From positions 3,108-67,107 of the forward strand of contig CASDPK010000008.1 in NCBI GenBank assembly GCA_949282555.1: a stretch of DNA of 64,000 nucleotides. Direction: 5' to 3'. The translations under genes were made by a program, and so were the position numbers. Every line of letters starts with the position of its first letter. The stretch's first letter is position 1. The notes below the pieces were generated by a model, which saw only the letters and a program-made list of their open reading frames with translations, did no database searches and was not told the origin of the DNA. Below, piece after piece: positions 9,282 to 22,762 of the stretch. Source of the stretch: an uncultured Lentisphaeraceae bacterium (GTDB lineage Bacteria > Verrucomicrobiota > Kiritimatiellia > RFP12 > DVOR01).

Positions 9282-11645
9282 ATGGGAGACAACAGCATCG
9301 AGGCGGAACCGCTTCAGGAACCCAAGTGCCCGAAGTGTGGGGCGGCGTTGCCCAAGGAGGCCAAACCTCTGGAAAGCGTGGCGTGCCCGGCGTGCGGGGA
9401 GACGGTGATGGTCCCGGGAATGTTGGGACAATACCGACTGACGCGCCTCATTGGCAAGGGCGGCATGGGCGCGGTTTACGAAGGCGTGGACGATGGGCTC
9501 CAGCGCAAGGTGGCCGTGAAGGTCATTTTGCGGGGGAAGGCCGCGGAGGATCCCACCTTCCTCGAGAGTTTCCGACGTGAGGCGCAGGCCGCCGCGAAGT
9601 TGAACAATCCCCACATCGTGGGGGTGTATGCCTTCGGCGAAAGCGCGGGACAGCCGTATTTGGTGATGGAGCTGGTGCAGCCGGACTCGCTGGATCGCAT
9701 GATGGCTTCGGGCCCCATGATGCCGGCCACGGTCTTGAACATTGGTTCGCAGATCGCGCAGGGGTTGAAGGCCGCCGCCGAGCAGGGACTGGTGCATGGC
9801 GACGTGAAGCCTGAGAACATCCTCATCAATGCCGATCGTGAGGCCAAGCTTGCCGACTTTGGCATTGCGGCGTTGGCCGGTGCCCGCGCCGCGGCCAACA
9901 ATGAGGTTTGGGGAACGCCTTATTACATTGCGCCCGAGACGTTGCGGCGGCAAAAGGTGGATCTCCGGGCCGACATCTATTCGCTTGGAGGCACGCTCTA
10001 TCATGCCATTGCGGGTGTGCCGCCGTTTGAGGGCGCCGACGCGGTGGAGGTGATGAAGGCCCGATTGGTGGGGCCTGCCCGGCCGCTCCAAGAGGTGGCC
10101 CCCGACTGCCCGGAGGCGGTCGCCAAGATTGTCATGCGGATGCTGGAGTCAGAACCGATCCGGCGTTATCCGAACTACGATTCGCTCCTTTCCGACATGG
10201 CCAAGGAACTCCGTGCGGCGAAGTCGCGCACGGGCGGCGGCAAGCGGATTGTGCTCAAGGGCAAGACGGCGCCTGTCGGCGTGGGGAATTCCCGGCCGAT
10301 GCCGTCGGTCGAAAATCTGAATTCGCCGCTTATTCCCGAACGCAAGGGGATGAGCCGTGGGGCCATCATCGGCCTTGCGGCGGGGTTGGGGTGCGGTGTC
10401 CCCCTCTTGCTTGTGGGGATTGGCGCGCTCCTCTTTTTCTCGTTCGCGGCGGAGAAGACGGAAGAGATTGCGTCTGAACTCGCGACGGCGCAGGCCGCCG
10501 TCATGAATCCCGCGTTGGCGCAGGCGGCACAGGATCGCGACGCGCTGAAGGCGTTGGGCGAAGCCGCCGCCACCACGGCCACCCAGGCGAAGGCCCGCGC
10601 CGCGGAGGCCGCCGCCATCGTCAAAGGGCTTGCGCAGCAAGCACGGCGGGCGGTGATGCCGGGGCAGGAGTCGTGGCTGGAGCCATCGGAAGGCGAGGCC
10701 CCGACATCCATGCTCAAGGCGTTGCAGAAGGCATTCGCGCAGAGTGCGTCACTCGCAACGGCCGCGAAGGGCGCGGATGCGCTCCGCGCGAAGGTGGACG
10801 GTTTGACCGCGACGGCGGAAGCCCCCGGAACCGACACGCCGGAGGCGATCGCCAATGCGTTGGCTGAGGCCCGCAAGGCTTCGGAGGCCTATGCCAAGAC
10901 GCCGGAGGCGGCCTCTGCCACTGCGGACATGAACGCACTGTTGGCGCAGAGGAAGGGATGGCGCAAAACGGTGGATGCCGCACGAGCGGAGATGGAGGCC
11001 GCCGTCAAGGCAAAGTTTGCCGCGGAGAATGAGGCAAAGCGCAAGGCCGCGGAGGCCGCCGCCGCCGAACGTGCGCGGGAGGCCGCGCAGGCAGAGGTCG
11101 CTTCGGTCGTGACCATGGAAGCCGCCGTCGGTGAGGAGCTCAACCGATTCATGCCCGAAGCGGCGCTGAAGGCATTCAAGAGTCGGGCCGCCCGGTTGAA
11201 GTCTCCGGAGGCGAAGGCGGCCGCGGAGGTCTCGGTCGAGCGTTTGAAGGCGTATGCTCGCCTCAAGACCTGGTTCGTGGACAAGGCCGCAAAAGGTGAG
11301 CTGGCGAGCTTTGGGATCGCGTCGGCCGACACGGAGGGTGTGACGTTTTCCGGGAAACGGGTTCCATGGGGCGAGTTCGTGGCAGACCGTCAAGCGGTCG
11401 TGTTCCGCATTCTGAACACGCTGGTGGCGGACGATACGGGCGCACGGGCGCTGGGGGCAGGGGAACGGGCCGAATTGGCGGTCTCGGCCCGGCTTTTCGT
11501 GACGCGCTATTTCGGCACGGAGACGCTTGCAAAATCCAAGACGTTGCGCGACATGATGGATAAACTTCGGACCGTGGCCGAAGCGTTGCCGGGGCCCAAA
11601 GCGGAATTGGAGCGCGTGGAGGGGGCGACCCCCACCGCGGAGTGA
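9282..11645 (+). CDS. Hanks-type Ser/Thr protein kinase with N-terminal zinc ribbon and long C-terminal Ala/Glu/Lys-rich coiled-coil region
   Basis: CPKCG...CPACG, then the kinase subdomains GKGGMGAVY, VAVK, HGDVKPENILI, DFGIA and APE. GGAGG RBS lies before the ATG. Confidence 0.85.
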   Translation: MGDNSIEAEPLQEPKCPKCGAALPKEAKPLESVACPACGETVMVPGMLGQYRLTRLIGKGGMGAVYEGVDDGLQRKVAVKVILRGKAAEDPTFLESFRREAQAAAKLNNPHIVGVYAFGESAGQPYLVMELVQPDSLDRMMASGPMMPATVLNIGSQIAQGLKAAAEQGLVHGDVKPENILINADREAKLADFGIAALAGARAAANNEVWGTPYYIAPETLRRQKVDLRADIYSLGGTLYHAIAGVPPFEGADAVEVMKARLVGPARPLQEVAPDCPEAVAKIVMRMLESEPIRRYPNYDSLLSDMAKELRAAKSRTGGGKRIVLKGKTAPVGVGNSRPMPSVENLNSPLIPERKGMSRGAIIGLAAGLGCGVPLLLVGIGALLFFSFAAEKTEEIASELATAQAAVMNPALAQAAQDRDALKALGEAAATTATQAKARAAEAAAIVKGLAQQARRAVMPGQESWLEPSEGEAPTSMLKALQKAFAQSASLATAAKGADALRAKVDGLTATAEAPGTDTPEAIANALAEARKASEAYAKTPEAASATADMNALLAQRKGWRKTVDAARAEMEAAVKAKFAAENEAKRKAAEAAAAERAREAAQAEVASVVTMEAAVGEELNRFMPEAALKAFKSRAARLKSPEAKAAAEVSVERLKAYARLKTWFVDKAAKGELASFGIASADTEGVTFSGKRVPWGEFVADRQAVVFRILNTLVADDTGARALGAGERAELAVSARLFVTRYFGTETLAKSKTLRDMMDKLRTVAEALPGPKAELERVEGATPTAE

Positions 11646-12355
11646 TGCGCCGCTTCTTGCTGTTGTTGCTTGCCGTGGTGGGCCTTCCGATGATTTGGGG
11701 GCTTGCCGTGGCGTTGTTGCAGGGCTTTGCCGCCGATGTCGCGGGGGGACCATTGCTGTCTTCCGGGCGGCTGTGGTTTCTTGGCGGGGCGGTGGCCATG
11801 ACGGTGCTTTACGCGTGGAAGGGCCGTGCGCTGATGGTGGTCTACGTCTTTGCCCATGAGATGACGCACGCCTTGGCGGGGCTTCTCTTCCTCTCGCGCA
11901 TTCATCGGGTGAGTGTGCGGGAGACGGGGGGCTTCGTGGAGCTTTCCAAGAGCAACCTTGTCATCGTCTTGGCCCCTTATTGTGTGCCGCTCTACCTGTT
12001 GGTGGCGGTGGGGGCGCGTGCGCTCACGGCGTGGCTGTGGCCGGGTGCGTTGCCGGAGGGCCCGTGGCTGGGGCTTTTCGGTGCTTTGACGCTCTTTCAC
12101 GTGCTCTATACGCTGAGTGCGTTGCTTTCCGTGGCGCAACCGGACGTCCGTGAGTACGGATGGCTCTTTTCCTACTGGCTGATTCTTTGTGTGAACCTGT
12201 TCTTCGCTTCGGTGGCACTCACCTTCGCCGGTCGCGTTGGGGCATATGCCCAGGGACGGAGGATGGTATCCGAGACGCTTCGTGCCTATGAAGCCGTTGG
12301 CCGTGCGTTTCAAGCGGTTTTGCCGGAGCGCACGTCCGCTCCTGTGCGCCCGTGA
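11645..12355 (+). CDS. Polytopic membrane protein with HExxH motif (putative membrane metallopeptidase)
   Basis: ATG overlaps the kinase stop (TGATG). Multiple TM segments. VFAHEMTHALAG contains HExxH. Confidence 0.45.
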   Translation: MRRFLLLLLAVVGLPMIWGLAVALLQGFAADVAGGPLLSSGRLWFLGGAVAMTVLYAWKGRALMVVYVFAHEMTHALAGLLFLSRIHRVSVRETGGFVELSKSNLVIVLAPYCVPLYLLVAVGARALTAWLWPGALPEGPWLGLFGALTLFHVLYTLSALLSVAQPDVREYGWLFSYWLILCVNLFFASVALTFAGRVGAYAQGRRMVSETLRAYEAVGRAFQAVLPERTSAPVRP

Positions 12356-12366
12356 AGGAGGTCTTC

Positions 12367-13125
12367 ATGAATCTCGTTGGCGAACTGCACGATCTGCTCC
12401 TTTCCTCCACGGCAACCGTGGCCTTTACCGGCGCCGGCGTCTCCACGGCCAGCGGCATTCGCGATTTTCGTGGACGCAACGGAATCTATAACGACACGTT
12501 CAAGGGCTATCGCGTCGAAGAGCTCTTCGGCATTGACCTCTTTCGCCATGATCCCTCCCTCTTCTATGAATGGGCACGTGATTTCGTTTATGGACTTGAC
12601 GCCTTTCGTCCTTGCACGGTGCACAACGTGCTTGCGCGATTGGAGCGTGATGGGTTGTTGCGTGCGGTGATCACGCAGAATATTGATCGCCTCCACACAC
12701 TCGCAGGTTCTCGCAATGTCTTTGAGGTACATGGTTCCCCCCATGTCCATCACTGCCTTGCCTGCGGCAAGGCTTACGATTATGACACGGTGGCGCCGGT
12801 CGTTCGCCGTGGGGACGTGCCGCAGTGTACGTGCGGCGGGGTGCTCAAGCCCGACATCGTCTTCTATGGGGAGGCCCTCCCGGAGACGGTCTTTCGCGGC
12901 GCCTTGGAGGCTTGCCAGCAGGCAGACCTTTGCCTTGTCCTTGGGAGTTCCCTCACGGTTTACCCGGCGGCGGCCCTTCCCGAGGAGGCTTATCGGTGCG
13001 GCGCGCGAATCGTCATTGTGAACGATACGCCGACCGCTCTTGACGCCCGTGCCCTTCTCCGCCTTTCCGATCTCACCGACACGTTTACCCAGCTGGCGGA
13101 AATGCTTCCGCACTCGATGCCCTAA
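12367..13125 (+). CDS. cobB: NAD-dependent protein deacylase (sirtuin, CobB/Sir2 family)
   Basis: GAGVSTASGIRDFRG, QNIDRLH, and zinc-binding CLACG...CTCGG. AAGGAGG RBS at 12355-12361. Confidence 0.85.
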   Translation: MNLVGELHDLLLSSTATVAFTGAGVSTASGIRDFRGRNGIYNDTFKGYRVEELFGIDLFRHDPSLFYEWARDFVYGLDAFRPCTVHNVLARLERDGLLRAVITQNIDRLHTLAGSRNVFEVHGSPHVHHCLACGKAYDYDTVAPVVRRGDVPQCTCGGVLKPDIVFYGEALPETVFRGALEACQQADLCLVLGSSLTVYPAAALPEEAYRCGARIVIVNDTPTALDARALLRLSDLTDTFTQLAEMLPHSMP

Positions 13126-13132
13126 CACGCCC

Positions 13133-14314
13133 ATGCTTACCATTGCCCTTACCCGACACCCTCACGCCCGCAAAGAACTGTTCCTTGGGAAAACGCTTCG
13201 CGTGGTTTCCCGTAGCGGCCTCAACCCTACCGAAGCCGCTCTCATTGAGTTCCTTCCGGAGTTGCCGCAGTCGTTTAACGTGCCGCTTTTTATTGGAGGG
13301 CGCACCGGTGCGCTCGCGATGGCCGTTTGGTTGCGCGGAATGGCCGCGGGGGGGCCTCTCATCCTTCACACGTTCGATGCGCATACGGCTACGACATTCT
13401 CACGGAACCTCGCAGAAAACAATGCGCCGTTATGGGATCCTAAGCTGTGCGTCCAGGTTCCTGGCTTTGAAATCAGTACGGCGTTGGACATCGCTGCCGT
13501 TGGTGACGATATTGCCTTTTGGCAGATGACGCGTGGTGATGGTACGGCCGAGCAACATCTTTTTGTGCTTGAGCAGCTGGTCAGTGATTGCGGTGTGAAG
13601 GAGCTCGTCATCGCCGCAGAAGAGCTGAATCCCACCTTTCTCGAACGTTTTCGCAAGGCTTGCACGAAAGTCGTTCTTCGCAAACAGGCAGGCGTGACCC
13701 TCCTGCGTGGAAGCGTGACCCATCCTTATCCTTTGGCGGAGCTTCCCAATCATTGCGCCACTTTTGAGGTTTCCCTTAGAGGCCATGCTCCCATCACCCT
13801 CGAAACGTGGCCCGGTTGTTTCTGTCATCGCCGCGCCGATATGGGCGGTCTTGCGCTTACCGAGGTCGTTGCCGAACAGGTGACCTTCGATAAGGGGGAT
13901 CGCATCATGGACATGGGGTGTGGTTGCGGTATGGATGGTATCCTCCTTGCCACGGCTTTTCCGGAAAAGGCCCTTCGTATCGACTATCAGGACTCCAATG
14001 CCGCTGCGCGCGACAGTACCGAGGCGAATCTTCGTCGCTACCCTCATGACGCTCGGTTCATCTTCTCCGCCGAAGGGGAGGGCACCCCGAGCTCTTATGA
14101 CCTTCTCTTGGCGAATCCGCCCTATTTCGGGGATTGGCGCATCGCCGAGTTCTTCATTCAGACGGCGGCTCGCTTGCTTAAGAAGGGCGGTTTACTTGCG
14201 TTCGTTTCCAAGCGTGAAGCCAAGCCGATGGAATTGATGAGCGCCGCGGGGTTTGAGCATTTGGGAACCTTCTCCCGCCGAGGTTATACGGTCCTCTTGG
14301 CCGCGCGCCGCTAG
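13133..14314 (+). CDS. Two-domain class I SAM-dependent methyltransferase, RsmC/RlmG-like rRNA (guanine-N2) methyltransferase
   Basis: C-terminal MDMGCGCGMDGIL (SAM motif I) and LLANPPYF (NPPY catalytic motif). ATG at 13133 lies 8 nt after the Sir2 stop. Confidence 0.7.
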   Translation: MLTIALTRHPHARKELFLGKTLRVVSRSGLNPTEAALIEFLPELPQSFNVPLFIGGRTGALAMAVWLRGMAAGGPLILHTFDAHTATTFSRNLAENNAPLWDPKLCVQVPGFEISTALDIAAVGDDIAFWQMTRGDGTAEQHLFVLEQLVSDCGVKELVIAAEELNPTFLERFRKACTKVVLRKQAGVTLLRGSVTHPYPLAELPNHCATFEVSLRGHAPITLETWPGCFCHRRADMGGLALTEVVAEQVTFDKGDRIMDMGCGCGMDGILLATAFPEKALRIDYQDSNAAARDSTEANLRRYPHDARFIFSAEGEGTPSSYDLLLANPPYFGDWRIAEFFIQTAARLLKKGGLLAFVSKREAKPMELMSAAGFEHLGTFSRRGYTVLLAARR

Positions 14315-14779: not shown

Positions 14780-15706
14780 TTACCACAACTTGGCGGGATA
14801 TTCCCCGGCATCGACCATCTTTTGGATCGCCTCAACGACGACCGGCTTGTCTTCACGGTAGGTCACGCCGAACCAGCTGCTTGCGGTGGGCAACACCTCA
14901 ACCGTGGCCTTGCCGGCCTTGACCAGCTCGTCCACGTAGAAAGGAATGTACCACTCGGCCTTCAACTGGCCTTCGTGTTCCTTGAACCATTCGGCGAAGC
15001 GCTCCTCCATGCCGTCAAAGAGTGCCGGCGTGAAGCCCCAAAGGTTCAAGGAGACAAGATTTTCACCCTTCAGCGGAACAGGCGCGGCGGGGTCTTCCTC
15101 GTTCTGGATGGAGCCATCGGCCTTGCGGGCAATCTTCGTCATTTCCGTGACGCCGATCAGCTTCCCATCGGCCGCCACGTCGCAGATGCCACGGGCCACG
15201 GAGCCATTCTCGGAGAGGGTCTGATCCAGACGGTAACCGACCATCGCGAAACGCTTGGGCTGTGCGGAGACATCCACCTCCGACAAGAACTTCGCCAAAC
15301 GACGGAAGGCGTCCGCGCCATAGAAATCGTCCGCGTTGATGGCCGCGAAAGGCGCATCAATGACGTTGCGGGCGGAACGGATGGCATGAGCGGTACCCCA
15401 AGGCTTTTCACGGCCTTCGGGGAAAACACAACCCGCCGGAAGATCCAAAGGATCCTGAAAGGCCAGCTCAATCCGAATCTTCCCTTCGTACTTGGCGACA
15501 ATCTTTTCGCGGAACGCCTCTTCAAAGTCTTTGCGAATGATGAAGACGACCTTGTCAAACCCGGCACGAATGGCATCATAGATGGAGTAATCCATGATGG
15601 TCTCACCGGAAGGGCCAACGGAATCAATCTGCTTGAGCCCGCCATAACGGCTTCCCATGCCTGCCGCCAAAATGAGAAGAGTGGGTTTCCTGTTCATGTA
15701 TCTCAT
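14780..15706 (-). CDS. Sugar-phosphate nucleotidyltransferase family protein
   Basis: N-terminal LILAAGMGSRYGGLKQ resembles the NTP-transferase GxGTR(L/M) loop. AAAGGAG RBS. The opposite-strand ORF 14675..15916 was judged a shadow. Confidence 0.65.
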   Translation of the reverse strand: MRYMNRKPTLLILAAGMGSRYGGLKQIDSVGPSGETIMDYSIYDAIRAGFDKVVFIIRKDFEEAFREKIVAKYEGKIRIELAFQDPLDLPAGCVFPEGREKPWGTAHAIRSARNVIDAPFAAINADDFYGADAFRRLAKFLSEVDVSAQPKRFAMVGYRLDQTLSENGSVARGICDVAADGKLIGVTEMTKIARKADGSIQNEEDPAAPVPLKGENLVSLNLWGFTPALFDGMEERFAEWFKEHEGQLKAEWYIPFYVDELVKAGKATVEVLPTASSWFGVTYREDKPVVVEAIQKMVDAGEYPAKLW

Positions 15707-16130: not shown

Positions 16131-16170
16131 GAAAGAGAAAAGCGCCACCCGAAACGGGCGGCGCTTTTCG
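16131..16170 (-). terminator. Rho-independent terminator downstream of the GGGtGRT gene
   Basis: On the minus strand: AGCGCCGCCCG-tttc-GGGTGGCGCT, then TTTTCTCTTTCTT. Confidence 0.6.
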
Positions 16171-16185
16171 CGGAAGTCGAGAACC

Positions 16186-17193
16186 TTACTTGTTCGCGGC
16201 TTCTTCGATGGCCACGGCCACGGCCACGGTCATGCCGACCATGGGGTTGTTGCCGGCGCCAATGAGGCCCATCATCTCGACGTGCGCAGGCACGGAAGAA
16301 GAACCGGCGAACTGAGCGTCGGAGTGCATGCGGCCCATGGTGTCGGTCATGCCATAGGAGGCGGGGCCGGCGGCCATGTTGTCGGGGTGGAGGGTACGGC
16401 CGGTGCCGCCACCGGAAGCGACGGAGAAGTACTTCTTGCCGGCGAGGACGCATTCCTTCTTGTAGGTACCGGCCACGGGGTGCTGGAAGCGCGTGGGGTT
16501 GGTGGAGTTTCCGGTGATGGAGACGTCCACGCCCTCCTGCCACATGATGGCGACGCCTTCGCGGACATCGTCAGCGCCGTAGCAGCGGACCTTTGCGCGG
16601 GGGCCATCGGAGAAGGCGATCTCGTTGGTGATGGTCAGCTTGCCCGTGAAGTAGTCGAACTCGGTTTCCACAAAGGTGAAGCCGTTGATGCGGCTGATGA
16701 TGTAGGCGGCATCCTTGCCCAGGCCGTTGAGGCACACGCGCAGAGGCTCCTTACGCACCTTGTTGGCCTTCATCGCAATGCCGATGGCGCCTTCGGCGGC
16801 GGCAAAGGATTCATGGCCGGCGAGGAAGCAGAAGCACTTGGTCTCTTCGCGCAGGAGCATGGCCCCCAGATTACCGTGACCAAGGCCGACCTTGCGGTCG
16901 TCGGCGACGGAGCCGGGGATGCAGAAGCTCTGGAGGCCTTCGCCGATGGCTTCGGCGGCATCGGCAGCCTTGGTGCAACCCTTCTTGAGGGCGATGGCCG
17001 CGCCGACGGTGTAGGCCCACTTCGCGTTCTCGAAGCAGATCTTCTGAATGTTCTCGACGATTTCGTAGGGGTCGAAGCCCTTGGCCTTGCAGATCTCGCG
17101 GCATTCCTCGACGGACTTGATACCATACTTATCGAGGACGGCCTGGATTTGCTTGATGCGGCGTTCGTAAGATTCAAACAGTGCCATGGTCAT
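16186..17193 (-). CDS. GGGtGRT family protein (uncharacterised, glycine-rich)
   Basis: Contains the family signature SGGGTGRTLHP. Start ATG 17193 was chosen from the context TAA-GGAGGAG-ATG directly after the upstream gene's stop. Confidence 0.8.
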   Translation of the reverse strand: MTMALFESYERRIKQIQAVLDKYGIKSVEECREICKAKGFDPYEIVENIQKICFENAKWAYTVGAAIALKKGCTKAADAAEAIGEGLQSFCIPGSVADDRKVGLGHGNLGAMLLREETKCFCFLAGHESFAAAEGAIGIAMKANKVRKEPLRVCLNGLGKDAAYIISRINGFTFVETEFDYFTGKLTITNEIAFSDGPRAKVRCYGADDVREGVAIMWQEGVDVSITGNSTNPTRFQHPVAGTYKKECVLAGKKYFSVASGGGTGRTLHPDNMAAGPASYGMTDTMGRMHSDAQFAGSSSVPAHVEMMGLIGAGNNPMVGMTVAVAVAIEEAANK

Positions 17194-17200
17194 CTCCTCC

Positions 17201-17914
17201 TTATTCGTGGCGGGGGTCAATGGACTTCACGGCACCCTGCTCCTCGGTGACGCGACCGTAGGTGCCGGTGCAGGCCTTGAGCGCCTCGTTGGCGTCCTGC
17301 CCCTTCTTCACGGCTTCCATGAACTTGCCCATGTGGACGAATTCGTAGCCGCAGACCTCGCTGTTCTTGTCGAGGTAGATCTTCTTGACGTAGCCCTCGG
17401 CCATTTCGAGGTAGCGCACGCCCTTCTGCTTGGTGGAGTACATCGTTCCCACCTGAGAGCGGAGGCCCTTGCCGAGGTCTTCAAGACCGGCGCCGATGGG
17501 CAAGCCGCCCTCGGAGAACGCGCTCTGGGTGCGCCCGTAGACGATCTGGAGATAAAGCTCGCGCATCGCGGTGTTGATGGCGTCACAGACGAGGTCGGTG
17601 TTCAACGCCTCCTGGATGGTCTTGCCGGGAAGGATCTCGGCGGCCATTGCGGCGGAGTGGGTCATGCCCGAGCAACCGATGGTTTCGACCAATGCTTCCT
17701 GGATGACGCCTTCCTTCACGTTGAGCGTCAGCTTGCAGGCGCCCTGCTGGGGCGCGCACCAGCCCACGCCGTGCGTCAGGCCGGAGATATCCTTGGTCTC
17801 ATAGACCTTGACCCATTTACCCTCTTCAGGAATGGGGGCCGGGGCGTGCTTGGCACCCTTGGCGACCGGGGTCATGCGCTCGACTTCGCTCGAGCAGGCG
17901 TAGGGACAACTCAT
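17201..17914 (-). CDS. IscU/NifU-like Fe-S scaffold domain protein with a C-terminal extra domain
   Basis: GVGWCAPQQGACKL...ETIGCSGMTHSAAMAAEILPGKTIQEALNTD...LVCDAI aligns with IscU GAPACGD...YGCGSAIASSS...KGKSLDEA..NTD...IHCS (three conserved Cys). Start 17914 has a GGAGG RBS. A 7-bp gap separates it from the GGGtGRT gene. Confidence 0.65.
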   Translation of the reverse strand: MSCPYACSSEVERMTPVAKGAKHAPAPIPEEGKWVKVYETKDISGLTHGVGWCAPQQGACKLTLNVKEGVIQEALVETIGCSGMTHSAAMAAEILPGKTIQEALNTDLVCDAINTAMRELYLQIVYGRTQSAFSEGGLPIGAGLEDLGKGLRSQVGTMYSTKQKGVRYLEMAEGYVKKIYLDKNSEVCGYEFVHMGKFMEAVKKGQDANEALKACTGTYGRVTEEQGAVKSIDPRHE

Positions 17915-17942
17915 GTTTCCTCCTTGGTTTGAGAGTGGGGTT

Positions 17943-17972
17943 ATTATACCGCCCCAACCCGTCCAACTGCAA
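17943..17972 (-). promoter_or_regulatory. Candidate sigma70 promoter TTGCAG-N18-TATAAT for the nifU-like/GGGtGRT operon
   Basis: Minus-strand -10 TATAAT at 17943-17948 and -35 TTGCAG at 17967-17972, about 25 nt upstream of the ATG. Confidence 0.4.
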
Positions 17973-18047: not shown

Positions 18048-18076
18048 AAGAGCCGCCCTGCTCGGGCGGCTCTTTG
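18048..18076 (-). terminator. Rho-independent terminator downstream of tpiA
   Basis: Perfect 10-bp stem AGAGCCGCCC/GGGCGGCTCT, followed on the minus strand by TCATTTTCG. Confidence 0.5.
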
Positions 18077-18881: not shown

Positions 18882-19316
18882 TTACTCAACGGGACGCTTA
18901 CCGATGCAATCCTGGGGGCAGGTCTCACAGTTCCCGTCGCAGGACATTTCGGACTCATCCATCGCCAAATCATTAAAGCACTTTTCCGGGAATTCCTCAA
19001 CCGAAAGCGCATCGGCGACGGAGAAATCCTCAAAGTCGGTGCCCTCCGGAAAGGTGACAAGGTAGTAGGCTTCCGGGTCCAACCCCTCCACGGAGGGTTC
19101 CACGAATCCAGTCTCGGCATCCGTTGTCTCAACGAGGGAGAGCCCCAGTCGCTTGAAGGTATCTTCCGTGACGGCTTCGTCGTAGCACAACAGATCCATG
19201 AGATCGTAACCGGGGCAAGCGATTTGCGTTGCGGAGACGGGGCGGAGGTCAAACTCATCTTCTTCCGCCATGTCGTCCATGGCGGAAGGATCGGTGGGAT
19301 TTAGAGGCTCACTCAT
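18882..19316 (-). CDS. Small highly acidic protein with C-terminal CX3CX2CX3C motif, translationally coupled to the GspK-like gene
   Basis: ATGA overlap (start 19316-19314, upstream stop 19315-19313). Rich in D and E. C-terminus is CDGNCETCPQDC. No recognisable family. Confidence 0.5.
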   Translation of the reverse strand: MSEPLNPTDPSAMDDMAEEDEFDLRPVSATQIACPGYDLMDLLCYDEAVTEDTFKRLGLSLVETTDAETGFVEPSVEGLDPEAYYLVTFPEGTDFEDFSVADALSVEEFPEKCFNDLAMDESEMSCDGNCETCPQDCIGKRPVE

Positions 19317-22300
19317 GGCAACAGCTGGTAGTAGATGACGCGATCCGGAAGTTCGCCGTAGGCGTCGCGCCAAACAAGCGCCACGGCCCGTGCGGTGGAG
19401 AGCGGCTTGTGCTGGGAAAGATCCCGTCCGGAATTGTAGGCGATGGAGTCCGCACGCAAAATGTAGAGGAAGAGTTGCTGGCGGTCACCGAAGCATTCCT
19501 TGGCCGAGGCGACAAGGGTCGTGACGTCGTTCTGACCGAGAATCTTTCCGGTGCCTGCGGCGGCATTGTAAGCCTTGAGGCGATCGGCAAAGGAACCGGA
19601 CCCATCCGCGCCGGCAGGCTGGATGATGAAATCCTCCAACGTCTTAGGACGGGCGGGGCGGCCCTTGGTTCCCTTGTAGAGTTCCTGCTCACGCGTCCAG
19701 TCGCTGGCATTTGCGCCCACACCGCCGCCGGTCGTCGGCAGGGGGAAGAGATAATCACGGATAAAGTCATCGTACTTTGGCGCGGCAAGGCCGCCGGAGG
19801 GCACCTCAATATCCTTCAAGGTGTCCAAATCATCAAGCAGTTTGGGTGAGATCCGACCGGCGCTTTGGGCCGCACTGAGGCGATCATAGGTGACCTTGGC
19901 CGCCTGCTTGATGGTGGGGGCAATACCCAACAGTGCGAATTGTCGCAACCGCTGGCAGAGCACGTAATCATCCTGTCCCGCGAAGACATTGACGAGTGCA
20001 CGGTGCTCTTCCGGGAAGTTGTCGCCACTAAAGCTCTGGAACATGGAGCCAGTCTTGACATAGCGGTCGTAATCCAATGCGCCATCGTTGAAGTCCGCCA
20101 CAGGGAGGGTGCGGTAAAACGATTGCTTGGCCACTTTATCGTGATAATCGGCATAACTGTTTGTCAGATAGCCGCCCTTGTCACCCCAAACGGAGGACGC
20201 GACAGGGACCGGCAGGAAACACGCCTCGGCCGGCAGGAGCAATTGGTCCGTGTCGTTGTAGCCGTATCGGACATCCTCGGCCTTAAGACCCCAAGCGAAG
20301 GGCACAATGTCGGCGTGGGCTTCGGCATAACCCGTCGCGACATCCGAGGCGGAGGAAGAACCTCCGGTGATGTCGACGCCCTGCACGAAGGTCCAGTGCG
20401 GGGAAGAGAAGGAGGGCAACGGAGCAATGCCACTACCGCCGAAGTAGGCATTTCCGGAGTCCGACACGCCCAGCATGGGGGAGAGCCAGTTGTAACGCGG
20501 ATCGACGGCCGACCATGTTCCGGTGTCCGGAGAGAGGGTACTCCACGCGGGCGTGCTGGTTCCGGCAACGGCGAGTTTCCGACCACTGCCAAAGTCGAGC
20601 TCTGTGCTTGGCTCAATTTTGGGCGTCACCGTTACGGCATCGGAAAGTTTGGTTTTGCACTTGTAGCCGGTGATGGCACCGTTTTCACCTTCAATGGGCT
20701 CGGACTCCCACTCAAGTGCGAACTCCAGGACGACGGGCCGGGTGATGCGGAAGAACTGGCCGTCGAACTTCTCCATGGAGGCAGAGTTGAAGCGATCATT
20801 CAACGTCTTTGGATAATCCGTCCGCTGGCGGAGGATCTTGCCGGTGCCGACGGGGCAGATGTCCGCACTTCCACCGCCTCCTGTGGTCTTCGCACGGAAA
20901 AGGAAATCCACAGCGAAAGCCAAGCGCACCTTTGTGGCTTCGGGCTGAATGGGGGTGGCGCTTTCCTTGTTGGCGACGGGGAGATCTTTTCCGCTGAGTT
21001 CCAATTTGAGCTTCGCTCCGGACTTCAAGGGCACGGTGCCTTCAGAGAAGAGTGCACCATCGGCCGTGAGTCCGGTGTCGCCGCCGGAAAGGTCGGCAGA
21101 GGCACTTTCGGTCTTGAATTCCAACTGCTTGTTGTTTGAGACCACAACGGCAGAACCGAATGCCGCCGCAAACCCCTCTGCACCAATCGTGTAACTCTCC
21201 TCGGAGGATTCATAACCGGGGAAATAGGAACGGAGGGAAATCTCCGTTTCCGGAGCGGGGAGCTCAATGTCCAGCACAACGGAATCATCCAGCGTTGTCG
21301 GGAATTTGTCGGGAGAGGTGTAGCCAGTGGCAGGCATTCCCTCCGGCGACTTCCCTTCAAATCCTTTGAGTGCTTCGGTGAGGCCGGAAACAAAGTCGCT
21401 CCCGAGAGAAGTGTCACCATCAAAGGGGTAAGACACGTCGGAGATCATGGGGACGTTTTCGACGGTCGGTTGCGCCTGTGCGAGGAAGTCCGGGTCAGAG
21501 CCGCCGTCCGAATCCAACACCCCGGGCTGAGAATCCTTGTCAAGGTAATCGCGGAGCATTCGCAGGAAGACGGTCGGCGCATCCAACGCATTCCCATCGC
21601 TGATGGTCTTGCGGTAGAGCTCTTCGATTCGCCCGCCAACGGAGGATGCGGAGGAGGGATCGCCGATGTCTTCGGCTTTGACCTCGTCACAAGAGATGAG
21701 CGGAGCGCCATCGGACGTCGTGTTGTCTGCGGTGCCGCCGCTCTTCTCGTCCTTTCGCGTATGGCGGGGCCAGAAACTGTAAACCGAGAAGGGGGAGAAC
21801 CCTCCGATGCCCTCTTTGTAGATGGCGGATTCCCAAGAGTAGGGGTAGATGTCGCTGCCGTTGTCGGTCACCAACAGCGCATCGCTGCCACGTGCCGCAT
21901 ACCATGCCAAATCGGCGTTCGAGAGGAACGTTGGAAGATCCAGTTGGCTACTGGCGGGGTTCTGTTCGGAATCCAACAAATCATAGCGGTCGGAAGCTTG
22001 CCCGGAAGCGGAGGTGCCGGGCGCTTGGCCAAAACCGAATTCATTGCCGGTGAGGCCAATGCCGCGGTAGGGGGAGGCGGACGAAATGCCATTGATGTCC
22101 ACGGAGTCGGAGAGGTTCACCACCGCCCACGCCATGCGCCCGACAACGGCGGTGTTGATTTCCGTCTTACTGCCGCCAACGGTGCTTTCGACAGAGGGAA
22201 TCAGGGCATTGACGGGCTTCCAGCCCGCGGTCCAATCGACATAATATTTCCCGCTGTAACCTTTGTGGCTGATACCATCGTAGAAGGGCTCTTGGAGCTC

Positions 22301-22762
22301 CAACGTGGCATAGACGTTGTAGGCGATGGCGGGCGGGAGATGGCGCAACACCGTATCGTCAAGCAGATAGGCAATCGGCTCTTTGTCGGGCTCACGCTGA
22401 GTGGAGGCAGAGAACTCGCTGGACCCGGTGTTGCGGGACGTGATGAGGCGCCCGTAGTAGTCCAGATTAGGGTAACGGAAGGGGGCGAGCGCTTCAACCG
22501 TGCGGGTGTCGGGGTTGTCACGATCAAACGTCCCGGCCTCGTCTCTCTGGCTTTTGAGGGCGAAGTCCACGGTCGCACGCGCATCGGTGAAGGCCGAGGC
22601 GAGCAACTCTCGGGCAATGAGATTCCGGCGATAGGCGGCCGCGGCGGAGCGCTCCGTGCGCATGGAGATGGAGAAGGCCACGGCACTGATCATCAGAAAA
22701 CCGAGGAGCCCCAACACAATGAGCAGGGCTGAACCGCGCTTTGGATCAGAAGAATGGAACAT
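19313..22762 (-). CDS. Giant GspK-like minor pseudopilin (1149 aa) with a long Ser/Gly/Asp/Thr-rich extracellular region
   Basis: N-terminus KRGSALLIVLGLLGFLMISAVAF matches the GspK signature (R-G-x-ALL-x-VL). It is the last pilin-like gene of the pseudopilin operon. Confidence 0.6.
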   Translation of the reverse strand: MFHSSDPKRGSALLIVLGLLGFLMISAVAFSISMRTERSAAAAYRRNLIARELLASAFTDARATVDFALKSQRDEAGTFDRDNPDTRTVEALAPFRYPNLDYYGRLITSRNTGSSEFSASTQREPDKEPIAYLLDDTVLRHLPPAIAYNVYATLELQEPFYDGISHKGYSGKYYVDWTAGWKPVNALIPSVESTVGGSKTEINTAVVGRMAWAVVNLSDSVDINGISSASPYRGIGLTGNEFGFGQAPGTSASGQASDRYDLLDSEQNPASSQLDLPTFLSNADLAWYAARGSDALLVTDNGSDIYPYSWESAIYKEGIGGFSPFSVYSFWPRHTRKDEKSGGTADNTTSDGAPLISCDEVKAEDIGDPSSASSVGGRIEELYRKTISDGNALDAPTVFLRMLRDYLDKDSQPGVLDSDGGSDPDFLAQAQPTVENVPMISDVSYPFDGDTSLGSDFVSGLTEALKGFEGKSPEGMPATGYTSPDKFPTTLDDSVVLDIELPAPETEISLRSYFPGYESSEESYTIGAEGFAAAFGSAVVVSNNKQLEFKTESASADLSGGDTGLTADGALFSEGTVPLKSGAKLKLELSGKDLPVANKESATPIQPEATKVRLAFAVDFLFRAKTTGGGGSADICPVGTGKILRQRTDYPKTLNDRFNSASMEKFDGQFFRITRPVVLEFALEWESEPIEGENGAITGYKCKTKLSDAVTVTPKIEPSTELDFGSGRKLAVAGTSTPAWSTLSPDTGTWSAVDPRYNWLSPMLGVSDSGNAYFGGSGIAPLPSFSSPHWTFVQGVDITGGSSSASDVATGYAEAHADIVPFAWGLKAEDVRYGYNDTDQLLLPAEACFLPVPVASSVWGDKGGYLTNSYADYHDKVAKQSFYRTLPVADFNDGALDYDRYVKTGSMFQSFSGDNFPEEHRALVNVFAGQDDYVLCQRLRQFALLGIAPTIKQAAKVTYDRLSAAQSAGRISPKLLDDLDTLKDIEVPSGGLAAPKYDDFIRDYLFPLPTTGGGVGANASDWTREQELYKGTKGRPARPKTLEDFIIQPAGADGSGSFADRLKAYNAAAGTGKILGQNDVTTLVASAKECFGDRQQLFLYILRADSIAYNSGRDLSQHKPLSTARAVALVWRDAYGELPDRVIYYQLLP

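What the first reader, a model, noticed from the sequence alone, without database searches (positions are those of the whole stretch)
16186..17972. Conserved-looking two-gene cassette: IscU/NifU-like scaffold domain protein plus GGGtGRT family protein
A 238-aa protein starts with a clear IscU-like Fe-S scaffold domain (three conserved Cys) fused to an unknown ~115-aa C-terminal domain. It is followed after 7 bp, with RBS GGAGGAG, by a GGGtGRT family protein (signature SGGGTGRTLHP) of unknown function. The pair has its own TTGCAG-N18-TATAAT promoter and terminator. The pairing suggests the GGGtGRT protein is an Fe-S client or partner.
Basis: partly seen in the sequence, partly recalled or inferred. 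Interest (0 to 1): 0.55.

Follow-up and report, generated by a model that had tools for sequence, protein, structure and literature searches.

The report
Conserved IscU-like plus GGGtGRT gene pair
This is a real two-gene operon encoding an IscU-fold cysteine-rich protein and a "GGGtGRT" protein, an already catalogued pair that always occurs together, is extremely conserved and iron-regulated in anaerobes, and still has no known function.

Summary
On the minus strand, a 237-aa IscU-fold protein (17914..17201) is followed after 13 nt by a 333-aa full-length Pfam PF14057 GGGtGRT protein (17187..16186). The pair has its own -35/-10 promoter and a 15-bp-stem terminator.

The refutation test came out in the finding's favour:
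- An IscU-like gene lies directly upstream on the same strand in all 77 testable GGGtGRT loci from at least six phyla.
- The same holds in 3 of 3 loci of a divergent clade and in a Vibrio.
- No third gene is conserved.

Both proteins are about 80% identical across phyla although synonymous sites are saturated. At 50% identity, the family collapses to essentially one full-length cluster among 1.84 billion representatives. GGGtGRT has no solved relative, only a generic Rossmann-like core.

The partner has the IscU fold but lacks several features of canonical scaffolds: the labile Asp, the His-Cys pair, the LPPVK loop and a neighbouring cysteine desulfurase. GGGtGRT keeps only one universal Cys.

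Published data show the pair is abundant, repressed by iron limitation, and hit in a B. thetaiotaomicron glucose-signalling screen.

Best reading: an obligate two-subunit iron-sulfur protein, not a scaffold with a client. The function is unknown. This window holds an ordinary new member of a known, uncharacterised pair.

The parts
17967..17972 (-). -35-like hexamer TTGCAG
   Evidence: Read directly from the sequence. It matches TTGACA at 3 of 6 positions and sits 18 nt upstream of the -10. The consensus scanner did not call it.
17943..17948 (-). -10 hexamer TATAAT (perfect consensus)
   Evidence: One of only 4 TATAAT in the 64-kb window on both strands. It lies 28 nt upstream of the gene A start, in the 133-nt gap after the tpiA terminator.
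17919..17924 (-). Ribosome-binding site AGGAGG of gene A
   Evidence: The minus strand reads CCAAGGAGGAAACATG.
17201..17914 (-). Gene A: 237-aa IscU-fold protein. It has an N-terminal Cys-bearing tail, an IscU-like core at about residues 43-126 (C53, C60, C81, C110), a conserved linker at 127-174, and a small alpha/beta C-terminal domain at 175-237.
17194..17200 (-). Ribosome-binding site GGAGGAG of gene B, directly after the TAA stop of gene A
   Evidence: Sequence. It lies 6 nt before the ATG at 17187.
16186..17187 (-). Gene B: 333-aa GGGtGRT family protein (PF14057). It has an N-terminal helical domain (1-112), a Rossmann-like alpha/beta core (118-257), the signature loop S258-GGGTGRT plus a nearly invariant stretch at 259-297, and C-terminal helices.
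16137..16169 (-). Intrinsic-terminator-like hairpin closing the operon
   Evidence: 15-pair stem with 10 G-C pairs and a 3-nt loop, followed by TCTTTCTTCC.

Best explanation
The two genes encode the two subunits of one obligate, abundant, iron-dependent protein complex.

Proposed roles (inferred, not shown):
- The IscU-fold subunit does not act as a transient assembly scaffold. It permanently holds an iron-sulfur cluster or a related metal centre. The ligands would be C81 and C110 plus C53 and/or C60, possibly helped by the Cys in its flexible N-terminal tail.
- The GGGtGRT subunit supplies a Rossmann-like pocket. Its invariant glycine-rich and His/Asp/Glu loops sit at the C-terminal ends of the beta strands. 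These are AGHES, GLGKD, CYGADD, TGNSTNPTR and SGGGTGRTLHPD. Such a pocket most likely binds a nucleotide or a phosphorylated metabolite.
- The nearly invariant but poorly modelled segments of both proteins (A 127-174, B 259-297) would fold onto each other or onto the cofactor.
- The complex would then be a redox or metallo-enzyme of anaerobic core metabolism, with output that feeds into sugar and redox status.

Shown here:
- strict gene linkage;
- extreme purifying selection on both genes;
- the IscU fold with a modified ligand set;
- no solved relative for GGGtGRT;
- signals of high expression;
- iron-dependent expression (from the literature).

Inferred only: physical complex formation, a stable cluster, ligand binding and catalysis.
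For: Linkage:
- The IscU-like gene lies directly upstream on the same strand in 77 of 77 testable GGGtGRT loci. tblastn gaps are mostly 9-49 nt.
- Taxa covered are Kiritimatiellia, Akkermansia, Bacteroidales, Clostridia, Erysipelotrichales, Treponema, Syntrophorhabdus and Eggerthellaceae.
- The same holds in 3 of 3 divergent-clade loci, where both proteins have drifted together to about 50% identity, and in Vibrio sp. THAF.
- No third conserved neighbour exists.

Equal constraint on both genes:
- Mean pairwise identity is 78% for A and 81% for B. Pairwise distances correlate with r = 0.66.
- pN is 0.12-0.2 while pS is saturated (0.4-1.2), and GC3 (0.11-0.93) tracks the host genome. This indicates ancient residence plus selection, not recent transfer.
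- At 50% identity the family is essentially one full-length cluster among 1.84 billion representatives.

Points against a classical scaffold:
- The canonical Cys37-Gly-Asp is replaced by Gln-Gly with a one-residue deletion.
- The helix after C110 starts straight after 'NTDLV', so the LPPVK/His segment is missing.
- No desulfurase is nearby.
- NCBIfam IscU/NifU/SufU equivalogs score 16-27 bits against cut-offs of 92-273.

Other sequence and structure evidence:
- GGGtGRT has only one universal Cys (C202) but five universal His.
- Conserved yet low-confidence segments occur in both models.
- The two genes have the strongest codon bias of 42 ORFs in the window. They also have a strong RBS and a perfect -10.

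Literature:
- BT0173-74 falls 11-13-fold under iron depletion (PMC10434189).
- The C. pasteurianum GGGtGRT spot is 7.1-fold higher with iron, a pattern like hydrogenase-1 (PMC5395762).
- GGGtGRT and, in largely overlapping taxa, a protein annotated 'NifU' are highly expressed in vivo (PMC11204068; PMC7035244). That this NifU is the gene A orthologue was not checked.
- Transposon insertions in BT0173-4 raise Roc 2-fold in glucose, in a screen that otherwise hit pfkA and an M16 peptidase (bioRxiv 10.64898/2026.04.10.717545).
Against: - No direct evidence of a physical complex, a bound cluster or any activity exists. AlphaFold-multimer could not be run.
- The gene A model is weak (pLDDT 61).
- IscU scaffolds are themselves abundant and are co-transcribed with partners, so abundance and coupling do not exclude a dedicated maturase.
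- C53 or C60 can each be missing (MAG L048; Vibrio), leaving an IscU-like three-Cys site.
- No natural A-B fusion was seen among the top database hits. The long ones are assembly chimeras.
- B. thetaiotaomicron insertion mutants grow normally on glucose and show only a 2-fold effect.
- The distance correlation is partly shared phylogeny.
Confidence: 0.45

Rival explanations
1. The IscU-like protein is a dedicated, transient scaffold or maturase. It builds or delivers an Fe-S cluster, or a special metallocofactor, into the GGGtGRT protein, which is the client enzyme.
For: - Gene A has the IscU fold and retains Cys at the positions of IscU Cys63 and Cys106, with extra Cys near the first site.
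- The N-terminal Cys-bearing tail is present in 103 of 103 homologues. It resembles the mobile Cys arms of metallochaperones (own knowledge).
- Gene linkage is strict.
- The most conserved GGGtGRT segment is unmodelled, as if it needs a cofactor.
- Expression depends on iron.
Against: - GGGtGRT has a single universal Cys and no Cys motif.
- A maturase is not usually under the same extreme constraint as its client (78% against 81% mean identity). Nor does it usually have equally strong codon bias.
- The scaffold hallmarks (Asp39, His105, LPPVK, adjacent desulfurase) are absent.
- Assembly systems are typically induced, not repressed, by iron limitation (own knowledge of suf regulation).
Confidence: 0.25
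2. A sulfur-relay or thiolation module. The SufU/IscU-like protein carries persulfide sulfur on its Cys residues. GGGtGRT is a nucleotide-dependent enzyme that uses it, by analogy with SufU-SufS or the TusA/ThiI-type relays.
For: - SufU is among the fold and sequence hits.
- Gene A has mobile N-terminal Cys residues.
- GGGtGRT has a Rossmann-like core with an SGGGTGRT glycine loop, suggesting phosphate or nucleotide binding.
Against: - No desulfurase or other relay component is linked.
- The glycine loop follows the last beta strand, not the first as in PP-loop enzymes.
- Very high abundance and iron-dependent expression are unusual for tRNA or cofactor thiolation enzymes.
Confidence: 0.1
3. 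A non-catalytic role: an iron or Fe-S storage, buffering or repair protein, or a redox or iron sensor. High abundance and iron-dependent synthesis would reflect storage rather than enzymology.
For: - The pair is abundant and goes down when iron is scarce.
- It sits in no conserved metabolic gene context.
- The growth phenotype is mild.
- Rex-like boxes lie upstream in some Clostridia.
Against: - More than 100 universally invariant positions are arranged as loops at the strand ends of a Rossmann-like fold, which looks like an active site.
- Storage proteins are rarely conserved at about 80% identity across phyla (own knowledge).
Confidence: 0.1
4. The adjacency is fortuitous or specific to this lineage, and the two products are functionally unrelated.
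For: None found.
Against: - 77 of 77 testable loci, 3 of 3 divergent loci and Vibrio all keep the same order, strand and short spacer in otherwise unrelated genomic contexts.
Confidence: 0.01

Closest known systems
Pfam PF14057 'GGGtGRT protein' with its 'NifU homolog' neighbour, e.g. Bacteroides thetaiotaomicron BT0173-BT0174 and C. pasteurianum F502_05012
   Same: - Gene B is a full-length member (652.8 bits).
- It is about 81% identical to Bacteroides copies, and gene A about 85% (L027 and L032).
- Gene order, strand and short spacer are the same.
- Both families are annotated but uncharacterised. A 2025 paper states that the function 'remains unclear' (PMC12078515).
   Different: - Nothing essential differs.
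- The window's clade (Kiritimatiellia-like) has moved the N-terminal Cys of gene A from the usual 'MC' at position 15 to an MSCPYAC prefix.
- The genes have a very high GC3 of 0.84-0.86.
IscU / NifU N-terminal domain Fe-S scaffold (PF01592; TIGR01999, TIGR03419)
   Same: - The GC(S/G)G motif with Cys81 matches IscU Cys63.
- Cys110 at the start of the last core helix matches IscU Cys106.
   Different: - The canonical first Cys is Gln57, with Cys at -4 and +3 instead. The labile Asp is deleted.
- There is no His before the last Cys, and the LPPVK-containing segment is missing.
- Extra parts are present: a Cys-bearing N-terminal tail, a 48-residue conserved linker and a 60-residue C-terminal domain.
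- No IscS/NifS neighbour exists.
- Equivalog HMM scores fall far below their cut-offs.
- The operon is repressed, not induced, by iron limitation.
SufU (zinc-dependent sulfur transferase, TIGR01994)
   Same: - There is a weak sequence match of 21.8 bits.
   Different: - The score is far below the 92.5-bit cut-off.
- No sufS or sufBCD neighbour is present.
- The Cys pattern and domain additions differ.
Generic Rossmann-like nucleotide- or phosphosugar-binding domains (GT-B glycosyltransferases, UDP-GlcNAc 2-epimerase, YjeF/ribokinase-like, SIS)
   Same: - Conserved glycine-rich loops sit at the strand C-termini.
   Different: - Identity is only about 10%.
- Foldseek finds nothing at E <= 0.001, and TM-scores are at most 0.27.
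- No family motif is shared.
- The N-terminal helical domain and the invariant 259-297 loop have no counterpart.
- This is a fold resemblance only, not membership.

Membership tests
Pfam PF14057 GGGtGRT | Full-length match to the family HMM above the gathering score | tested here: met
   652.8 bits against a cut-off of 27. Residues 4-330 match profile positions 1-327 of 327.
Pfam PF14057 GGGtGRT | Signature GGGtGRT motif in a protein of about 320-335 aa | tested here: met
   S258-G-G-G-T-G-R-T265 in a 333-aa product. The motif is invariant or nearly so in 73 sequences, including the divergent clade.
GGGtGRT / IscU-like conserved gene pair (as in BT0173-BT0174) | IscU-like gene immediately upstream, same strand, short spacer | tested here: met
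   The window has a 13-nt spacer. The arrangement holds in 77 of 77 testable loci, 3 of 3 divergent loci and Vibrio.
IscU/NifU-N Fe-S scaffold | HMM match above curated cut-offs | tested here: inconclusive
   Pfam NifU_N scores 24.6 bits against 22, but only over 59 of 127 profile positions. NCBIfam equivalogs are far below their cut-offs: NifU_clost 26.8 against 187.9, IscU 22.7 against 192.4, SufU 21.8 against 92.5. Precomputed Pfam annotation of most homologues is empty.
IscU/NifU-N Fe-S scaffold | IscU alpha+beta fold | tested here: met
   [not shown]
IscU/NifU-N Fe-S scaffold | Three cluster-ligand Cys at the canonical positions (E. coli Cys37, Cys63, Cys106) | tested here: inconclusive
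   C81 and C110 occupy the second and third positions and are universal. The first position aligns to Gln57. Conserved C53 and C60 flank it, and each is lost in one lineage.
IscU/NifU-N Fe-S scaffold | Labile-ligand Asp next to the first Cys (CGD), and His preceding the last Cys | tested here: not met
   HMMER alignments place a gap opposite the Asp ('APQQG-ACK' against 'APACGDVMK'). The residue before C110 is Val.
IscU/NifU-N Fe-S scaffold | LPPVK chaperone-binding loop (ISC-type IscU) | tested here: not met
   The sequence goes from 'ALNTDLV' straight to C110 and the last helix (H111-126). No LPPVK-like segment is present. Some clostridial or archaeal NifU-type scaffolds also lack it (own knowledge).
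IscU/NifU-N Fe-S scaffold | Genomic association with a cysteine desulfurase (IscS/NifS/SufS) | tested here: not met
   No conserved third gene appears in the flanks of the 80 loci. Pfam-annotated neighbours within 8 kb in the window are TIM, NTP_transferase, MTS, SIR2, Pkinase, DHQ synthase and N_methyl.
IscU/NifU-N Fe-S scaffold | Transient cluster assembly and transfer to apo-proteins | not testable with these tools
   This needs anaerobic biochemistry.

The most novel reading that the evidence does not exclude
The pair is a previously unrecognised two-subunit metalloenzyme. An IscU fold has been recruited as a permanent cluster-carrying subunit, joined to a fold with no solved relative. The complex sits in the core redox or sugar metabolism of anaerobes. 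It is so constrained that the whole family stays above about 50% identity, and mostly around 80%, across bacterial phyla.
Probability: 0.4. Interest if true: 0.8.

Novelty: new member of a known kind. Interest (0 to 1): 0.5.

Why it matters
The window's copy is not new in itself. What matters is the pair it belongs to.

- Conservation and abundance: this is one of the most strongly conserved and most abundant protein pairs of gut, rumen and other anaerobes.
- Unknown function: it has no assigned function and no solved structure.
- Phenotype: the only one on record is a mild hit in a B. thetaiotaomicron glucose-signalling screen.
- Linkage: the analysis here shows that the linkage is absolute.
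- Selection: the conservation reflects selection rather than recent transfer.
- Redefined question: the IscU-like partner is unlikely to be an ordinary scaffold. The question therefore becomes what a stable IscU-fold/GGGtGRT complex does.
- Experimental systems: B. thetaiotaomicron BT0173-74 and C. pasteurianum are tractable systems for answering that question.

Tried and rejected
- Pfam at E <= 10. This gave no extra family for GGGtGRT and nothing for the C-terminal 110 residues of gene A.
- Natural A-B fusions as evidence of interaction. The long database proteins are assembly chimeras with internal duplications or foreign N-termini, so this was rejected.
- A third conserved neighbour. None was found; the next best cluster occurs in 5 of 80 loci.
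- Recent horizontal spread as the reason for about 80% identity. This was rejected because synonymous sites are saturated and GC3 is ameliorated to each host. Hits in 'plasmids' are large non-mobilizable replicons or mislabelled chromosome pieces. 'Phage' hits are unannotated faecal contigs.
- RNA elements around the operon. None were found.
- Regulator boxes upstream across loci. Fur, PerR, CRP/FNR and IscR-like patterns are not enriched. Only Rex-like boxes in a Clostridia subset stand out, and they are absent from the window.
- The divergent representative P0270. It was used to test linkage outside the tight cluster, and the pair is kept.
Full report
**What is there**

The finding lies on the minus strand.
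- Gene A runs 17914..17201 and encodes 237 aa. It is preceded by AGGAGG.
- Its TAA stop is followed at once by GGAGGAG and then, 6 nt later, by the ATG of gene B.
- Gene B runs 17187..16186 and encodes 333 aa.

Homologues all begin MALFES. Public gene calls on contigs that carry an identical gene B product give 237 aa and 333 aa with a 13-nt spacer.

Upstream lie TTGCAG, an 18-nt spacer, and TATAAT (17972..17943).
- The consensus scanner skipped this site because the -35 matches only 3 of 6 positions.
- TATAAT occurs only four times in the 64-kb window on both strands.

Two terminators bracket the pair. A 15-pair hairpin at 16169..16137 follows gene B. Another at 18074..18048 closes the upstream tpiA gene. 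The pair is therefore a self-contained transcription unit.

The two genes have the strongest codon bias of 42 ORFs in the window. Their ENC values are 29.3 and 30.1, against 31.7 for tpiA and a median around 46. This fits high expression.

**What the proteins are**

*Gene B*
- It is a full-length member of Pfam PF14057, 'GGGtGRT protein' (652.8 bits). No NCBIfam model matches.
- The AlphaFold2 model (pLDDT 80, pTM 0.83) shows three parts: an N-terminal helical domain, a Rossmann-like alpha/beta core at about residues 118-257, and C-terminal helices.
- The most conserved stretch of the family is residues 259-297, which holds the GGGTGRT signature. It is modelled below pLDDT 50.
- No PDB sequence is related.
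- Foldseek finds nothing at E <= 0.001.

*Gene A*
- It matches Pfam NifU_N only marginally: 24.6 bits against a cut-off of 22, over residues 59-117.
- It scores far below the IscU, NifU and SufU equivalog cut-offs.
- C81 and C110 take the places of IscU Cys63 and Cys106.
- The canonical first Cys-Gly-Asp aligns to Gln57-Gly with a gap, and conserved C53 and C60 lie on either side.
- The His before the last Cys is absent, and so is the LPPVK-containing loop.
- The core carries three additions: an N-terminal tail, a conserved but unmodelled linker (127-174), and a small alpha/beta C-terminal domain with no Pfam match.
- The tail carries at least one Cys in all 103 homologues. In the window's clade the Cys sits in an MSCPYAC prefix instead of the usual 'MC'.

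**Is the pairing recurrent?**

Yes, without exception in what could be tested.
- A scan of one genome per species found at least 598 confirmed GGGtGRT loci. The 80 best were kept. They come from Kiritimatiellia, Akkermansia, Alistipes, Bacteroides, Prevotella, many Clostridia, Longibaculum, Treponema, Syntrophorhabdus and Eggerthellaceae.
- tblastn with gene A finds a homologue directly upstream on the same strand in 77 of them. The gap is mostly 9-49 nt.
- The three loci without a match have fewer than 120 nt of contig upstream.
- Clustering all flanking ORFs shows no third conserved gene.
- Starting instead from a gene A homologue (Alloprevotella) gives the same pair.
- A divergent full-length representative (P0270) led to three metagenome loci. 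There GGGtGRT is only 50-54% identical to the window protein and the IscU-like protein 48-51%. The pair is still kept, with overlapping or abutting genes.
- A marine Vibrio and a Persicobacter also carry GGGtGRT. In the Vibrio locus, where ORFs were read, the IscU-like gene again lies directly upstream.

**How conserved, and why?**

- Among 70 complete pairs, mean pairwise identity is 78% for A and 81% for B. The minima are 68% and 72%.
- In a library of 1.84 billion 50%-identity representatives, the family reduces to essentially one full-length cluster. The rest are fragments, chimeras and one or two divergent members.
- This is not recent transfer. Against the window genes, synonymous differences are saturated (pS 0.4-1.2, and 0.74-0.79 even for the 92-96% identical Kiritimatiellia MAG). 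GC3 ranges from 0.11 to 0.93 in step with the host genome. pN stays at 0.12-0.2.
- Across all clades, universal residues in B include five His (104, 125, 267, 288, 302), several acidic residues and many Gly, but only one Cys (C202).
- In A, C81 and C110 are universal. C53 and C60 are each lost once, in MAG L048 and in Vibrio.

**What the literature adds**

No paper characterises either protein.
- The function is called 'poorly characterised' or 'unclear' in 2024-2025 papers (PMC11204068, PMC12078515).
- The pair is named as such in B. thetaiotaomicron: BT0173 is GGGtGRT and BT0174 is the 'NifU' protein. It is down 11-13-fold under iron depletion (PMC10434189).
- Transposon insertions in BT0173-4 were one of only three loci recovered in a screen for loss of glucose-dependent silencing of Roc/Cur. 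The others were pfkA and an M16 peptidase. The effect was a modest 2-fold, and growth was normal (bioRxiv 10.64898/2026.04.10.717545).
- In C. pasteurianum the GGGtGRT spot is 7.1-fold higher with excess iron, a pattern like hydrogenase-1 (PMC5395762).
- Both proteins appear among abundant proteins in chicken-gut and rumen metaproteomes.

**Interpretation**

I rank a stable two-subunit, iron-dependent complex above a scaffold with a client. My confidence is about 0.45 against 0.25. The arguments are:
- absolute linkage with short spacers;
- equal and extreme constraint on both genes;
- conserved segments in both that a single-chain model cannot order;
- an IscU fold stripped of the features that make IscU a transient scaffold;
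- a partner with only one universal Cys;
- repression rather than induction under iron limitation.

The Rossmann-like core has invariant glycine-, Ser/Thr- and Arg/Lys-rich loops at its strand ends. This suggests a nucleotide or phospho-metabolite ligand, but that is inference only. Sulfur relay and storage or sensor roles remain possible at about 0.1 each.

The complex, the cofactor and the reaction are all untested. AlphaFold-multimer was not available, and model coordinates could not be inspected.

**Verdict**

The key prediction, recurrent linkage, is confirmed. The 'client' wording is only partly supported.

The window's locus is an ordinary new member, probably from a Kiritimatiellia-like organism. 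It belongs to a known, database-annotated but functionally unknown gene pair. The interest lies in the family-level puzzle rather than in this copy.

Noticed in passing
Loci L007, L014, L024, L025, L034, L039, L048, L051, L055, L059, L060, L061 and L068, at 25-230 nt upstream of the IscU-like gene: Rex-like boxes (TTGTTAA-N4-TTAACAA with at most 3 mismatches; best is L059, GTGTTAATTTTTTAACAA) occur upstream of the pair in 13 of 70 loci. Nearly all are Bacillota; L060 is a Phocaeicola. Composition-preserving shuffles give 4.0 +/- 1.9. This hints at NADH/NAD+ control in Clostridia. The window has no such box.
   Followed up: partly
Database proteins P0001-P0003, P0005, P0009, P0010, P0016, P0121, P0126, P0241, P0250, P0277, P0306 and others: Many over-long GGGtGRT and IscU-like entries are metagenome assembly chimeras. 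They carry internal duplications or unrelated N-termini such as ABC transporter, SusD-like or GMP synthase sequences. Extreme conservation probably lets assemblers join different species. They could be mistaken for domain fusions.
   Followed up: yes
window 17870-17914 (-), the N-terminus of gene A: This clade starts MSCPYACSSEVERMT. The nearly invariant 'MC' Cys at position 15 is Thr here, and two Cys appear in a CPYxC prefix. Other clades have one to four Cys in this tail, and none of the 103 homologues has zero.
   Followed up: partly
window 19313-22762 (-) and the genes upstream of it on that strand, to about 26400: A 1149-aa protein with no Pfam hit follows three genes carrying prepilin-type N_methyl domains. 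This looks like a pseudopilin or type II secretion-like cluster with a very large unannotated component.
   Followed up: no
window 9282-14314 (+): This is a run of regulatory-type genes. It comprises a 787-aa Ser/Thr protein kinase, an unannotated 236-aa ORF, a SIR2 deacetylase and an MTS-family methyltransferase. It lies beyond an NTP_transferase gene (14780-15706) and a short unannotated ORF from the operon, and runs convergent to it.
   Followed up: no
L093 7245-8954 (Vibrio sp. THAF191d, 1.85-Mb replicon); Persicobacter L094: GGGtGRT also occurs in a marine Vibrio and in Persicobacter, so the family is not strictly confined to obligate anaerobes. In the Vibrio locus the IscU-like gene lies directly upstream, and its product has Ala at the C60 position. 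Neighbours in Persicobacter were not checked.
   Followed up: partly
Literature: B. thetaiotaomicron BT_RS00855 (BT0174): The NifU-like protein showed the most significant protein-abundance change in B. thetaiotaomicron exposed to the crAss-like phage DAC15, without a matching RNA change (PMC11601342).
   Followed up: no
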